Source of the DNA: Diadema antillarum
Taxonomy: Eukaryota
Assembly: GCF_040938485.1 (NCBI RefSeq)
Contig: NW_027271081.1
Span: forward strand, 558,001 to 622,000
Length of the DNA stretch: 64,000 nt
Direction: 5' to 3'
Within the stretch, counting starts at the first letter, position 1. Each line of letters starts with the position of its first letter. Positions 54,028 to 64,000 of the stretch are shown piece by piece. Made by a program: the position numbers.

Positions 54028-57000
54028 CATATATATACACAGAATATATATTGACTTGACTTGGTGTTATGTATCCAATGGAAAGTGTTATATAAATACT
54101 GCACATTGTCTCAACTATCATTGACACATGGGTGTGTTCTCGGGCATTGTTACAATTTCTGGCTGTCTCCATATATGACAAGGGCCTATAGTGTGTGGGC
54201 AGTTTTATCTATGTGTATGTGTATGAGCAATAACTCTCAAAACTGAACAATATTTGTCACACTCTTCCCCCTTTCTCTACACAAAGTCCATAAATTCACA
54301 ATACACACCCACTTCATACACATTGCAGCCTTTAATTCAACAACAGTGAACTCACTAACCATCAGCATGGCTGTTTAAGTGCATGGGGAGCAAAGAACAG
54401 AGGGTTGAGAGTGGCACGAGTTTCATCTCCATAGCCTAGCACAAACTTTCTTTTTATACACACATGTATTCATCATTACAGTAGCTGGTGTGAGGGGGCA
54501 TTTCATGGGTTTGGGCAAGTCAATTTTTCCTTCGCTCTACCTTATTGATGAAGCTGTTGAGAAAGTAAATTCACAGAATTTAGCACAAAGGAGTCTCAAC
54601 AAGACATTGTGTGTAATGAGAGGGAGGGTGTACTACTGACATGTAAAAATATACAAGTGATTCATGGTCACTTAAGTAACATCAGTACCCGGTACGTATA
54701 TAAATTTAAACTTCAGATCAATGGACAGGTACAACAGACATTCAAAGCAAGGAAAGCTCTTCAAAATATATATCCATACTTTTTCTCTCACTTCCAAATG
54801 GTTTGATTTGATAATTGGAGCTAAATACTGTATGTAAATTTCACCTGCTACAATGTATTTACATTGGAATTAATCTGAAAATGTGTGTGCTTGGGGAGGG
54901 GGGGGGGGGGATTGCCAAAGTGCTGTTGGTGTTGCATGTGTAATGAAGGGGAGGAGCAAAGGCAATACACTGTACACACATGATGCACCCACAGGTCACT
55001 GGAACAGTTTACGAAAATAAGAAAAATTACATATACAAAACTGTATTTCCTTCTAACAGGTCATTATTGTTACTCCTATGTTTTTGGGTAGGGTCTTACC
55101 TAAAGCTGGTCAAAATGAAAAACCACAAAGTTTACGTATGTGAGCATACATCTATGTGAGAAATTGGGTTTCAAAACTCTCAAATGAATTTACAGGTCAA
55201 TAATAATTACATCAATTCATGAGTGCATGGATTGTGTACTTACAATGACAGTAAATTGAGAGTATGTGTTTATTAATTCAGCTTCTCTAGCTGTAAATAC
55301 ATTATGGGTGAATGTGATTGGAGAGCAAACACAGGACAGGAGAGTACTGCAGGTTGATCTTGATTCTTTCTGTCCTTTTGATGCCTCTTTTATTCACAGC
55401 AAACCACTGTGTCTGAATTCCCTGAACAGATAACTAGACATGATGTACAAAGTAGTTTTTATATCACCGCAGAATTGTGAAGTGAATACAAGTATAGGCA
55501 TTCTCCAACACTTGCTCTTCTTTTCCCTTGCTGCAAGTCCAACAAAAAGGCTATTACTCAACAAGGTAGACTAGAGACTACTTATTGACAAATTACCCTT
55601 CATCAACATAAATAAGCACTGATTATTTAACCCTATTTCAACTGGGCTATTTGAGACCAGGTTTTTACTGAGGGGGGGGGGGGTCAATTTGACCCCCCTT
55701 CAGATCTCGGCCGCGGATCGCGCGATTGCCGCAAAATTTTGCCTAAACATAGAGCCAGACGTCAACTACAAGATTACATGGTTATACAATCAAAAAAAAA
55801 TTGATTTTCTATTTTTAGTAAATTAATTTTGCAAATTTAAGCATGAAGCCATATTTTCACCTACAACTCCATTAAAAAGACTGAAGGATTGCTAAATTTT
55901 TGTGTCAGAGTTTCTCAAGACACATCGAACAATTATCTTGTAAAAAATTAGCACAATCAAAATCATTTTCTTTTGTTTTTTCTTGTTTTGTTAATTTCTT
56001 ATGTATTTCATTGTTTTTTCGACCTTTTGTTTTCTATTGTTATTTTGCCAAAATTTGTTGCAGGTACTTTTTCAAGCTTATCTATATTAGAATCGATTAA
56101 TTTCACTGGTTAAAAGTTGAAATAATCTAATTTATATCAATTTAACCAAAAAACACAATTTACATTGAATTTGCACACGATATCACGAATTTGAGCCGTT
56201 TTCGGGTTGACATGCATATGCAAAACATTACGTAACTTCAGAACGGTGTACCTGGACGTCGCAAATTTGGTCTCAAAATATGCAGGAGACTTCAGTGAAA
56301 AAAGTCATGAAACAAAAAATCTTTGCGCGTTGCAGAATCGTAGTGCGAAATGTCGAGGGGGGGTCAATTTGACCCCCCCCCCCCAAGTTGGAATAGGGTT
56401 AATGTTCTAGTAGTAGCCATGATTGGAAAAAAAGAAAGTCATGGACATACACACTAGGGTATGCCTGTGATTTCTTTATCATGGCTATTACTAGAACACT
56501 GAATAATGGGGGCTTGTTTACGTTGATGAAGGGAAATTTGTCAATAAGTTGCAAAAAACAACAACTAAACACATGAATGCATTATTGATTTGAGTAAATT
56601 AGATGCATATGTAACTCAACAAGTAGAAAACCACTGCTGAAATATGCACTTCATTCTGCAAATATGCATGAATGATCTACCATTATTCATATTCATATCT
56701 CATACAAAGTGCAAATGTCTATGCAACCAAATCTTACACTGTATGGCATCAACATATCAGTGAGATTTGATGTATATCAAAGTCCAATTGTCCATGAATA
56801 AGTCCATAAATATTTTCACCAAAGACTGTTGAGAATGTGAGCTAGAATCCTTTCTCCTCAAGCCACTGTCGAGCTTTATCCTCATATAGCCCTTTGTAGC
56901 GTATCCTCATGGCGTACTCATTCACGGTGACTGGAATTGCTTTGCCTTCTTGCTCCTCAAGGTAATGCTGTAGATCTGTTGCAAGTGTCTGTAACACAAA

Positions 57001-61960: not shown

Positions 61961-64000
61961 CACTTGTGTGTATGTTAACTCCTGAATGTAAAATGTGAAC
62001 GGTTACAGAAAAAAAAATACATGAATGACTGGGAAATCACACCGGGTAGAGATATGAGACGAATATGAATGAAAATTTAAAGAAAATGATTGACAAAAGA
62101 CGAAATCGATCCTGCTGTTTTGAATGCTGCGAGTGAGACTGACGAATTTGAACTGTAAATGACGAAAATGTATGCCAAATGACTAAATTGAATGGACATA
62201 TTTGAAAATGAACGACGCAAGACGAATTTGAAAGTAAGATTGGCCTATTCCCGACATCCCGTGACGAAATTAAAGTAAAAATTTGTGAAATTGAATGAAA
62301 AAAGTTTGAAAATGAATGGGAAAACCTATGGCTATATTACCTGTGGCTGTACAGGTTATACAATATCTATACAGACAAAGTAAGTAATTCCCAGTTTAGC
62401 TCAGATTTAGAAGAAGATTTTGATTTACCAAAAGATTTGGATTTACCAAAAGATTTGGCCAAATCGTGATATCAGTCCCATCTCGTTCTGCATGTGCATC
62501 ACCACTATGTGCAAAGTCTCTGGAGGTTGAAAGAAGTCCCCGGCTATGACGAAATTAATGGCGGTGAATGGAGTGGGGACCTATTTCGCGATAATGCCAA
62601 AGATTTTACTGACTTTGAAGATTTTTGAAGTGTTCATGTTTGACTTTTTCCAATATTTGAGTTACAAATGTTGGCCGCTCAGCTCAGTGCAGTATGAACA
62701 TGTATGGTGAACATTGCTTGGTTTTAAAGCTTAGATTGTGATTTTGATGCATGAATATTAATTAAGTGAAAGATGTTGATTACTCCATTATGAAAGTTAT
62801 GTTCAGAAGTATGATGGGATTTTGCACTATGTGAAAGATAACTTTATTGGGAGGAGTGATTGGCTTTAAGTCCGTAAAAAAAAATAATAATAGTAATCAG
62901 AGGAAATGAATTTTAGATATAGCATCTTGTTCAGGAATTATTACCAGAAAATCAAATCACAACTGAACAAGACCCATGACTTCCTGAGCTAGGGACCCAC
63001 CTCACTAATTGTTTATCAAATGATCGCTCTTTCAAAGGAGACGAGGCATAGGATGATAGGGATGATTAAGCAGAATTATATCATTTTGTTGTTTTGCTTA
63101 TAAATTGGTAACTAACTGGCTGTCTCTTACATTTTTGTATAGACGGGGAGGGGGGGGGGGTTAATATGTTATATACACACTTCTTTGGGGGTGTTATTAA
63201 GAACATGGACTAGGCAGCATCTTTGTTGTATGAAGTTTCTTGATATTCCTGTTGAGAGTAACAAGGTTCTCTTGTTGTCTTCATATCTGAATGCCAATAG
63301 AAACAATATACACTGTACATACCATTTGATTCACACGCCATACCCCGGGGTACGGCATTGTGTAGCGCCATCACGTGTCCATTATTATTCAGTTGTGCAA
63401 TGTTCAGTCATGGCAACTATTTTCTCATCATCAGATAAGATGTATGCTATCAGTAAACACGCACTTCATCATTCATTCATTCATTCAATGCTAGAACATT
63501 ATTGAAAGTAACTGACACTGTCTTGGATAATAAACAAAATTTGATTTCCAGTCTCATTCAAAGTCAACTTTACAAAATCAGTTCTTACAATAACATGTAC
63601 AATAATATTAAACAGTGAAAATTACAACAGAGCATGTAAATGAAAAAAAAAATATTTGCATGCATTAATTGTTGCATAATCACAAACAAGAAAACAATTT
63701 GTGCATAATGATAGTAAAAAATTATTTTTACACATTTTTTGGTAACCCAGTGTACAGCACTGAAAAAAAAAAAAATATATATATATATATAATTCAACAA
63801 AATGGCAAATTTTCATTTAGTACCCCAGGGTACAACATATTGCATCATTTAACAATCTGAAATTACATCCTGAGGGAAATGAAAATCTTTTTTTTTTTAC
63901 TTCTGTGCACAGCATCAAGATGCAACTGTTTCTACGAGCTGATCAAACCCTCACCGTTGAGGTGACTGGGGAGGAATCTGTCAGTGATCTGAAGGTAAGT

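What the first reader, a model, noticed from the sequence alone, without database searches (positions are those of the whole stretch)
56842..64000. MRPL49-FAU head-to-head pair, the same arrangement as in human
Seen: MRPL49 (-) and FAU (+) diverge, with the MRPL49 ATG at 60318. Established: human MRPL49 was first named NOF (neighbor of FAU) and lies head-to-head with FAU. Inference: if this is an invertebrate deuterostome, a cytosolic and a mitochondrial ribosomal-protein gene have stayed on one shared promoter for hundreds of millions of years, possibly coupling production of the two ribosomes.
Basis: partly seen in the sequence, partly recalled or inferred. Interest (0 to 1): 0.66.

Follow-up and report, generated by a model that had tools for sequence, protein, structure and literature searches.

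The report
Sea urchin MRPL49-FAU divergent gene pair
A sea urchin carries the genes for a mitochondrial ribosomal protein (MRPL49) and a cytosolic one (FAU) back to back around one short CpG-rich start region, as reported for human, which makes it a good but unsurprising example of an anciently conserved divergent gene pair.

Summary
On the minus strand, four GT..AG-bounded exons (60318..56842) encode a 205-aa mL49. Translated one by one, they tile the NCBI protein 'large ribosomal subunit protein mL49-like [Diadema antillarum]' at 100% identity. On the plus strand, exon 63913-63994 (ATG 63920) encodes 25 residues. All 13 of 13 PDB matches to them are residues 1-25 of FUBI-eS30, and they are identical to the D. 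antillarum FUBI-eS30 isoform X1. The window is therefore echinoderm, not human.

New here: the ATG exon follows a splice acceptor. The first 12 residues of isoform X1 map to 60534-60568 (10 of 12 identical, correct phase, GT donor). FAU exon 1 therefore lies within 250 bp of the MRPL49 ATG, and the 3.6-kb ATG-to-ATG gap is mostly a 3344-nt first intron carrying transposon-like repeats.

A shared bidirectional promoter is the best reading, but no start-site data exist. The rest of FAU lies beyond the window. Coupling of the two ribosomes is untested. Conserved head-to-head pairs are a known class, so I file this as a new member of a known kind with modest interest.

The parts
56842..56988 (-). 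MRPL49 exon 4: 48 codons plus stop TAG (56844-56842)
   Evidence: Pfam Img2 profile 40-84 of 84, E 3.8e-7. 100% identical to the P0002 C-terminus. Acceptor AG at 56990-56989.
57994..58118 (-). MRPL49 exon 3 (starts in phase 1; 41 full codons)
   Evidence: Pfam Img2 E 2e-11, 44.4 bits, above the cut-off of 34.4. 100% identical to P0002. Donor GTAAGG at 57993.
58719..58947 (-). MRPL49 exon 2 (76 codons plus 1 base)
   Evidence: 5 of 5 PDB hits are mL49, best E 7.3e-11. 100% identical to the NCBI D. antillarum mL49-like protein.
60202..60318 (-). MRPL49 exon 1, coding part (39 codons). The N-terminus is basic with no acidic residue until E26, which resembles a mitochondrial presequence. An in-frame TGA lies two codons upstream of the ATG.
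   Evidence: Translation. 100% identical to P0002 residues 1-39. Donor GTGAGT at 60201-60196. No targeting predictor was run.
60311..60321 (-). AATATGGCGGC over the MRPL49 start codon, matching a YY1-type motif (motif recalled from memory)
   Evidence: 1 match in the window against 0.09 expected; 9 of 100 shuffles had at least one match. This is a lead only.
60319..60533 (.). Core divergent promoter interval between the MRPL49 ATG and the part of FAU exon 1 supported by the annotation. It contains TGACGTC (CRE-like, recalled motif).
   Evidence: Region 60319-60568 has CpG o/e 1.03, against 0.55 for the whole window and 0.06-0.30 in the MRPL49 gene body. The function is inferred.
60372..60383 (+). 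12-nt pyrimidine run, a candidate TOP-type start of FAU. The weak donor AAG|GTGGTG at 60407 would give an upstream-ATG-free leader.
   Evidence: One of 6 pyrimidine runs of 8 nt or more in 60319-63912. The donor scores 1.88 on a heuristic matrix. Inference.
60512..60519 (+). Second pyrimidine run (CTTTCTTT), an alternative candidate FAU start
   Evidence: Inference.
60534..60568 (+). 3' part of FAU exon 1. It reads MRFDWPFVQFE(G) in frame with the main ORF and ends at donor AGG|GTAAGA (GT at 60569).
   Evidence: P0004 residues 1-12 map here with 10 of 12 identical. It is the second-best HSP in the whole window, E 0.09. The split codon GG|C gives the Gly seen in P0004. The donor ranks 3rd of 220 GT sites and is the best one before 61647.
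60569..63912 (+). FAU intron 1 (3344 nt, GT..AG) if the 60569 donor is used. It carries transposon-like repeats.
   Evidence: 0 of 11 ORFs of 70 aa or more in 59886-63812 match Pfam.
63913..63994 (+). FAU exon 2: 7 nt of leader plus ATG 63920 and FUBI residues 1-25
   Evidence: A polypyrimidine tract and AG lie at 63886-63912.
63995..64000 (+). Donor GTAAGT of FAU intron 2. The window ends here.
   Evidence: Heuristic donor score 7.71.
59901..62500 (.). Zone not depleted of CpG (o/e 0.8-1.3) spanning MRPL49 exon 1, the promoter, FAU exon 1 and the repeat-rich part of FAU intron 1
   Evidence: The flanks 57001-59500 and 62501-64000 have o/e 0.06-0.50.

Best explanation
This is the Diadema antillarum (sea urchin) orthologue of the human FAU/MRPL49 locus. 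The two housekeeping genes are transcribed away from each other from one short, CpG-rich, bidirectional promoter. MRPL49 starts within tens of bases of its ATG at 60318. FAU starts 50-200 bp away on the other strand, transcribes a short first exon that is probably non-coding and ends at 60568 (or at an earlier donor), and splices across a 3.3-kb transposon-inflated intron to the ATG exon at 63913. The pairing most likely dates to the common ancestor of echinoderms and chordates. It most likely persists because any breakpoint between the two 5' ends would damage the promoter of one or both essential genes. Co-regulation would then be a consequence of the layout rather than a demonstrated cause. 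Shown: gene identities, orientation, exon structure, the species, the position of one annotated FAU first exon, and the absence of a detectable intervening gene. Inferred: the start sites, promoter sharing, and the ancestry of the arrangement.
For: Identity of MRPL49. Identity of the FAU exon: 13 of 13 PDB hits are FUBI-eS30, and 27 of 27 residues are identical to the D. antillarum FUBI-eS30 isoform X1, which carries ubiquitin plus Ribosomal_S30 domains. The FAU ATG exon begins at a splice acceptor, so a 5' exon must exist upstream. P0004 residues 1-12 map to 60534-60569 with the right phase and a GT donor. Both pyrimidine runs of 8 nt or more that lie before 61000 fall between the MRPL49 ATG and that donor. 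CpG o/e is about 1.0-1.1 over 59901-60600, while the 1.4 kb just upstream of the FAU ATG exon is CpG-depleted like a gene body (o/e 0.18-0.50). That argues against a start close to 63913. No Pfam domain was found in 11 of 11 long ORFs between the genes, and no Rfam family reaches its gathering score anywhere in the window. Human side: passages list FAU and MRPL49 as adjacent neighbours of SYVN1 (PMC12164210) and one promoter CpG island labelled FAU-MRPL49 (PMC3323629). The class is known: conserved ancestral microsyntenic pairs are enriched in 5'-5' orientation and short intergenic distance (PMC3514665 passages).
Against: There are no transcript or start-site data. The FAU exon 1 placement rests on a 12-residue match (E 0.09 window-wide) to a predicted isoform labelled X1, so other isoforms may use another first exon. 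That exon carries an in-frame upstream ATG, and two more upstream ATGs (60431, 60494) lie ahead of it if transcription starts at 60372, which is unusual for a ribosomal-protein leader. Two stronger donors (61647, 61737) lie further down the interval. P0004 differs from the window at 2 of 12 exon-1 residues. The database also lists it on one contig of 1.45 Mb, while the mL49 protein is listed on one of 4.8 Mb. The rest of FAU (residues 26 onward) is outside the window. Ancestry rests on two lineages; the human head-to-head orientation is recalled and was not read in a paper.
Confidence: 0.72

Rival explanations
1. The genes are neighbours but do not share a promoter. The main FAU promoter lies further down the 3.6-kb interval, within or after the repeat-rich CpG-rich stretch (about 61-62.5 kb). 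The exon at 60534-60568 would serve only a minor isoform.
For: The matching protein is labelled isoform X1, so at least one other isoform exists. Exon 1 contains an in-frame upstream ATG, and upstream ATGs precede it. Donors at 61647 and 61737 score higher than 60569. CpG o/e stays at 0.9-1.3 up to about 62500.
Against: Those two donors sit inside an insertion nested in a transposon-like copy. No protein evidence maps there. Only one short pyrimidine run (62644-62651) lies in 62.3-63.88 kb, and that stretch is CpG-depleted.
Confidence: 0.15
2. The FAU piece in the window is a partial or duplicated copy, and the functional FAU of this species sits elsewhere.
For: P0004 differs at 2 of 12 residues in the exon-1 stretch and is listed on a contig of different length from P0002. 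Only one coding exon can be seen.
Against: The coding exon is 100% identical over 27 residues with an intact acceptor and a strong donor, so it is not a processed pseudogene. The two differences are single-base changes in a stretch that is probably untranslated, as expected between haplotypes (inference).
Confidence: 0.07
3. The same head-to-head pairing arose independently in echinoderms and vertebrates.
For: Nothing specific. Only two lineages are in hand, and gene order is generally scrambled over such distances (PMC3514665 passages).
Against: Inference: with tens of thousands of genes, the chance that one named gene becomes the divergent neighbour of another named gene twice is very small. 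The shared fine structure fits common descent: a leader exon beside the partner gene, with the ATG in exon 2. The human part of that structure is recalled.
Confidence: 0.05

Closest known systems
Human FAU/MRPL49 locus at 11q13
   Same: The same two genes are adjacent. One promoter CpG island is labelled FAU-MRPL49 (PMC3323629 table passage), and the neighbour list is ZNHIT2, FAU, MRPL49, SYVN1 (PMC12164210 passage). Head-to-head orientation, a non-coding FAU exon 1 and a four-exon MRPL49 are recalled and were not read in any call.
   Different: Here the FAU first intron is 3.3 kb and carries transposon-like repeats. The urchin mL49 is 205 aa against 166 aa for the mammalian chains in the PDB. 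The genes next in line differ. On the MRPL49 3' side there is a weak Cmc1-like exon and then a NO66/RIOX1-like gene, and no SYVN1-like domain was found in the ORFs scanned.
HSPD1/HSPE1 and other conserved ancestral microsyntenic pairs (Irimia et al. 2012, PMC3514665)
   Same: A divergent (5'-5') pair of housekeeping genes with a very short intergenic distance, kept across phyla (passages).
   Different: HSPD1 and HSPE1 act in one complex. mL49 and FUBI-eS30 belong to two different ribosomes in two compartments. FAU, MRPL49 and 'ribosomal' each occur 0 times in that paper's main text.
Conserved divergent ribosomal-protein gene pairs (S16/L13, L21/S9; Davila-Lopez et al. 2010, PMC2871058)
   Same: Divergently transcribed pairs of translation-machinery genes kept over long times (passages).
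   Different: Those pairs are mostly fungal or protist, and both members are cytosolic. FAU and MRPL49 are not mentioned in the main text (0 occurrences each).

Membership tests
mL49 / MRPL49 (Pfam Img2, PF05046) | Img2 domain scoring above the curated cut-off | tested here: met
   Exon 3 alone scores 44.4 bits against a cut-off of 34.4. Exon 4 continues the profile (40-84) at 30.7 bits. The identical database protein P0002 scores 83.7 bits.
mL49 / MRPL49 (Pfam Img2, PF05046) | Sequence similarity to mL49 chains of solved mitoribosomes | tested here: met
   For exon 2, 5 of 5 PDB matches are mL49, E 7.3e-11 to 1.3e-9.
mL49 / MRPL49 (Pfam Img2, PF05046) | Mitochondrial targeting and incorporation into the 39S subunit | not testable with these tools
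   The N-terminus is basic and lacks acidic residues until position 26. No predictor or experiment was available.
FAU (FUBI-eS30 fusion gene) | N-terminal ubiquitin-like FUBI domain | tested here: inconclusive
   Only residues 1-25 are in the window. 13 of 13 PDB matches are FUBI-eS30 residues 1-25, best E 0.0012, with no ubiquitin chain. Pfam does not recognise the fragment.
FAU (FUBI-eS30 fusion gene) | eS30 (Ribosomal_S30) domain fused in the same ORF after a Gly-Gly site | not testable with these tools
   This part lies beyond base 64000. The species' annotated protein P0004 shares the exon and has Ribosomal_S30 at residues 89-146 (E 4.5e-29) after ...LLGG, but its link to this exact locus is not proven.
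FAU (FUBI-eS30 fusion gene) | Intron-containing locus rather than a processed copy | tested here: met
   The exon is bounded by a polypyrimidine tract with AG and by GTAAGT.
Bidirectional-promoter gene pair | Divergent orientation with no gene in between | tested here: met
   MRPL49 is on the minus strand and FAU on the plus strand. 0 of 11 ORFs of 70 aa or more between them match Pfam. Rfam gives 0 hits.
Bidirectional-promoter gene pair | Transcription starts less than 1 kb apart (criterion as cited in PMC3514665) | tested here: inconclusive
   The FAU exon-1 donor lies 250 bp from the MRPL49 ATG by protein mapping. No start-site data exist.
Bidirectional-promoter gene pair | Correlated expression of the two genes | not testable with these tools
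   No expression data are available.
Conserved ancestral microsyntenic pair (CAMP) | Adjacency of orthologues in distant animal lineages | tested here: inconclusive
   Sea urchin: shown here. Human: adjacency from paper passages, orientation recalled. No other phylum could be examined because no eukaryotic genome collection is on hand.

The most novel reading that the evidence does not exclude
The shared promoter is not merely a frozen accident. It would be a selected device, at least as old as the deuterostome ancestor, that ties the output of a cytosolic small-subunit protein (FUBI-eS30) to that of a mitochondrial large-subunit protein (mL49). The same short set of sites would set the supply of both translation systems. 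The YY1-like site over the MRPL49 ATG, the CRE-like TGACGTC and the pyrimidine-run starts are candidates.
Probability: 0.12. Interest if true: 0.6.

Novelty: new member of a known kind. Interest (0 to 1): 0.3.

Why it matters
If the pairing proves general among deuterostomes, it joins HSPD1/HSPE1 as a clean, very compact case of a divergent gene pair held together for over half a billion years (timescale recalled). It would be unusual in linking the cytosolic and the mitochondrial ribosome. The promoter core is only about 200 bp, so it could be dissected in sea urchin embryos. In practice it also shows that the 3.6-kb gap between the two start codons is misleading. The real 5'-to-5' distance is probably under 250 bp, and the rest is a transposon-inflated leader intron.

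Tried and rejected
- Pfam on the 25-residue FAU exon gave only a spurious hit (NMB0315_dom_I, E 0.11). MRPL49 exons 1 and 2 gave none.
- The 25-residue query was too short for the large protein search. A 40-residue reference from the same open frame worked.
So I could not learn whether P0004 comes from this locus, another haplotype or a second copy, or what the other isoforms look like.
- Paper searches:
  - 'neighbor of FAU': 0 papers.
  - NOF1, C11orf4 and 'neighbour of FAU' with MRPL49: 1 irrelevant paper.
  - MRPL49 + FAU + bidirectional: 5 papers. I read passages of 2, both irrelevant, and saw only the listing for the other 3.
  - MRPL49 + FAU + promoter: 7 papers. I read passages of 2, which gave the human adjacency only, and saw only the listing for the other 5. 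None discusses how the pair evolved.
  - The pair written together: 1 paper.
  - A six-term search was too broad to be useful: 2,136 papers.
  - A search on mitochondrial and cytosolic ribosomal proteins plus 'bidirectional promoter': 7 papers, listing only, none on this pair by title or abstract.
- Rfam at gathering scores found nothing in the window.
- No AATAAA or ATTAAA lies within 1.3 kb downstream of the MRPL49 stop, so I give no 3' UTR end.
- I considered that the inverted repeats flanking the promoter (59999-60145 against 61120-61206 plus 61811-61884) might be a promoter-specific structure. I rejected this because further copies lie at 47971-48092 and 52489-52559, so it is an interspersed element.
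- The exon translations were never joined into one protein. Full-length comparisons used database protein P0002 instead.
- Not attempted: any cross-species synteny survey. I also ran no structure or complex prediction, since they are not needed for a question of gene order.
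Full report
**What the window is**

The window has 37% G+C overall and a CpG observed/expected ratio of 0.55. It holds two N runs (25790-25991 and 26942-27093), which I left untouched. It is not human. One MRPL49 exon is 100% identical to the NCBI protein 'large ribosomal subunit protein mL49-like [Diadema antillarum]' (P0002, 205 aa). The FAU exon matches 'ubiquitin-like FUBI-ribosomal protein eS30 fusion protein isoform X1 [Diadema antillarum]' (P0004, 147 aa). Diadema antillarum is a diadematoid sea urchin in Echinodermata, Deuterostomia.

**MRPL49**

Reading the minus strand gives four coding exons:

| Exon | Coordinates | Content |
|---|---|---|
| 1 | 60318..60202 | 39 codons |
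| 2 | 58947..58719 | 76 codons + 1 base |
| 3 | 58118..57994 | 2 bases + 41 codons |
| 4 | 56988..56842 | 48 codons + TAG |

- The three introns are 1254, 600 and 1005 nt, and all are GT..AG.
- Pfam Img2 matches exon 3 (E 2e-11, 44.4 bits against a cut-off of 34.4, profile positions 2-38) and exon 4 (E 3.8e-7, 30.7 bits, positions 40-84). The two exons thus cover the domain consecutively. Exons 1 and 2 have no Pfam hit.
- For exon 2, 5 of 5 PDB matches are mL49 chains (E 7.3e-11 to 1.3e-9).
- Aligned as separate rows, the four exon translations are each 100% identical to P0002. Together they cover 204 of its 205 residues. The missing Gly is the codon split across intron 2.
- P0002 itself scores 83.7 bits on Img2.

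**FAU**

- The plus strand reads ...TCTTTTTTTTTTTACTTCTGTGCACAG|CATCAAG ATG.... The ATG at 63920 therefore sits 7 nt inside an exon that begins at a canonical acceptor.
- Twenty-five codons follow, then GTAAGT, which are the last six bases of the window.
- Pfam cannot place 25 residues; its only hit is a spurious one at E 0.11.
- In the PDB search, all 13 of 13 sequences matched at E<=10 are FUBI-eS30/FAU chains, each aligned at its residues 1-25 (best E 0.0012). None of the very many ubiquitin chains in the PDB matched.
- The 27 residues IK+MQLFLRADQTLTVEVTGEESVSDLK are identical to P0004.
- P0004 has a ubiquitin-family domain...LLGG, and a complete Ribosomal_S30 domain (E 4.5e-29).
- The exon is therefore the first coding exon of an intron-containing FAU gene, not a processed copy.
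- The rest of the gene lies beyond base 64000 and could not be seen.

**Where FAU starts**

This is the point that decides whether the two genes share a promoter, because the two ATGs are 3601 bp apart.

- *A 5' exon must exist upstream.* The acceptor in front of the ATG exon requires one.
- *The annotated isoform places it beside MRPL49.* P0004 carries a 14-residue N-terminal extension (MRFDRPFVLFEG-IK). A local tblastn of P0004 against the window puts residues 1-12 at 60534-60569, with 10 of 12 identical. It is the second-best HSP in all 64 kb, at E 0.09.
- *Frame and splice site agree.* The window reads MRFDWPFVQFE followed by GG|GTAAGA. The split codon GG + C(63913) gives the Gly that P0004 has before IK.
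- *The donor is good.* On a rough donor matrix (frequencies recalled, heuristic only) it ranks 3rd of 220 GT sites in 60319-63912 and is the best one before 61647.
- *Result.* A predicted FAU isoform uses an exon ending 250 bp from the MRPL49 ATG, followed by a 3344-nt GT..AG intron.

The same 250 bp contain 2 of the only 6 pyrimidine runs of 8 nt or more in the 3.6-kb interval, at 60372-60383 and 60512-60519. These look like TOP-type starts typical of ribosomal-protein genes. That is established knowledge for vertebrates and flies, recalled and not tested for urchins.

The ATG at 60534 is in frame but sits in a poor context, and two short upstream ORFs start at 60431 and 60494. I therefore think the extension is an annotation by-product and that the exon is effectively a leader. 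An earlier weak donor at 60407 would give a leader free of upstream ATGs. That last step is my inference.

**Promoter anatomy**

- Region 59901-60600 has G+C 0.46 and CpG o/e 1.12.
- The MRPL49 gene body (57001-59500) has o/e 0.06-0.28. The 1.4 kb in front of the FAU ATG exon has o/e 0.18-0.50.
- In an animal with gene-body methylation (inference), this pattern places the unmethylated start region around 60.0-60.6 kb. It extends through the repeat-rich 61-62.5 kb but does not reach 63.9 kb.
- AATATGGCGGC lies across the MRPL49 start codon. It is the only match in the window, against 0.09 expected, and 9 of 100 shuffles had one. It resembles a YY1 site, a motif I recall rather than tested, so it is a lead only.
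- TGACGTC at about 60343 is CRE-like (recalled).
- An in-frame TGA two codons upstream of the MRPL49 ATG, and a poor acceptor context there, suggest the ATG exon is MRPL49's first exon.

**What lies between and around**

- None of the 11 ORFs of 70 aa or more in 59886-63812 matches Pfam, and Rfam finds nothing in the window at gathering scores. I see no intervening gene.
- The interval does carry mobile-element debris. A roughly 147-nt element with terminal inverted repeats sits at 59999-60145, in MRPL49 intron 1. It appears again, inverted, at 61120-61206 plus 61811-61884, in FAU intron 1. The arms are 99-100% complementary, and the second copy is split by an insertion of about 600 nt.
- Further copies at 47971-48092 (100% over 122 nt) and 52489-52559 (77-82%) show it is an interspersed family, not a promoter feature.
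- A second pair of degenerate inverted arms lies at 60824-60926 and 62221-62323 (73% complementary).
- Transposon insertions therefore account for much of the 3.3-kb leader intron.

**Coverage of the ORF scans**

Of the 174 ORFs of 70 aa or more in the window:

| Number of ORFs | What was done |
|---|---|
| 147 | Scanned |
| 11 | Scanned |
| 3 | The MRPL49 exon frames, scanned as exons |
| 10 | Dropped because they overlap the N runs |
| 3 | Never scanned (57107-57319 +, 58567-58791 +, 59364-59585 +) |

One search also covered 121 ORFs of 45-69 aa in 40400-56845.

**Comparison with what is known**

- For human, I read passages stating that SYVN1's nearest neighbours are ZNHIT2, FAU, MRPL49, SPDYC and CAPN1 (PMC12164210). 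I also read a table row giving one promoter CpG island labelled FAU-MRPL49 (PMC3323629).
- That the human genes are head to head a few tens of bases apart, and that MRPL49 was first called NOF, is my recollection. Searches for 'neighbor of FAU' (0 papers) and for NOF1/C11orf4 found nothing usable.
- The general phenomenon is established. Irimia et al. 2012 (PMC3514665; passages read) describe conserved ancestral microsyntenic pairs across metazoans. These pairs are enriched in 5'-5' orientation and in intergenic distances under 1 kb, with HSPD1/HSPE1 as the example.
- Davila-Lopez et al. 2010 (PMC2871058; passages read) list conserved divergent pairs, including ribosomal-protein pairs.
- Neither main text names FAU or MRPL49 (0 occurrences each).
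- Searches combining MRPL49 and FAU with 'bidirectional' (5 papers) or 'promoter' (7 papers), or writing the two names together (1 paper), found no paper discussing how the pair evolved. This covers only the open-access library searched.

**How it most likely works, and how sure I am**

The arrangement and the gene identities are shown. I rate the presence of a FAU first exon beside MRPL49 at about 0.75-0.8. It depends on a short but positionally exact match to a predicted isoform.

Common ancestry with the human pair is an inference from two lineages. It is nonetheless strong, because chance re-creation of one specific divergent pair among tens of thousands of genes is very unlikely.

The most economical reason for persistence is entanglement. 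Two essential genes have 5' ends that interleave within about 200 bp, so no rearrangement breakpoint in between can be tolerated. I give it about 0.12.

**Loose ends**

- P0004 differs from the window at 2 of 12 exon-1 residues (R for W and L for Q, each a single-base change).
- The database lists P0004 on one contig of 1.45 Mb, whereas P0002 is on one of 4.8 Mb.
- This could be a second haplotype or assembly, which I think most likely because the stretch is probably untranslated, or it could be a second FAU locus.

**Verdict**

This is a tidy new example of a known kind of conserved divergent gene pair, of modest interest.

Noticed in passing
window 59999-60145; 61120-61206 + 61811-61884; 47971-48092; 52489-52559: A roughly 147-nt element with terminal inverted repeats (MITE-like) occurs at least four times in the window. 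Some copies are 98-100% identical, so the family was active recently. Two copies in opposite orientation bracket MRPL49 exon 1, the promoter and FAU exon 1. One of those two is split by an insertion of about 600 nt that itself contains a long palindrome near 61470-61545.
   Followed up: partly
window 36498-36800 (-) and 40128-40466 (-): Exons of a ribosomal oxygenase gene: RIOX1_C_WH at E 7.6e-8 and JmjC_2 at E 2.8e-14. The best PDB matches are NO66/RIOX1, E 5.8e-16. This is a third ribosome-related gene within 25 kb of MRPL49 and FAU. I recall that the human RIOX genes are not at 11q13.
   Followed up: partly
window 52938-53105 (-) and 52061-52216 (-): Weak matches to Cmc1-like (twin CX9C mitochondrial protein; E 1.2e-4, 22.4 bits against a cut-off of 22) and to zf-met2 (E 0.0056, below its cut-off). 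They may be small genes just 3' of MRPL49. If the Cmc1-like exon is real, another mitochondrial gene sits next door.
   Followed up: no
window 20328-20894 (-): A large exon of a fatty-acid elongase (ELO/GNS1-SUR4 family, E 1e-35).
   Followed up: no
window about 2800-5300: An array of roughly 160-175-nt tandem units, each with a G-run (direct-repeat families D2-D7, 6 to 12 copies each). It looks satellite-like, with higher G+C (0.43-0.44) and strong positive GC skew.
   Followed up: no
window 28488-28879 and 46185-46577: Two copies of a roughly 390-nt dispersed repeat, 90-95% identical and with internal inverted arms (D11, D12, I8-I11).
   Followed up: no
window 60534-60568 versus protein P0004: The in-frame upstream ATG of FAU exon 1 would add 14 residues to FUBI. 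The database isoform differs from the window at 2 of these 12 exon-1 residues but at 0 of the next 27. That pattern suggests the stretch is not under coding constraint.
   Followed up: partly
window 55501-56842 (-): No AATAAA or ATTAAA lies within 1.3 kb downstream of the MRPL49 stop codon. The 3' end of the transcript is undefined.
   Followed up: no
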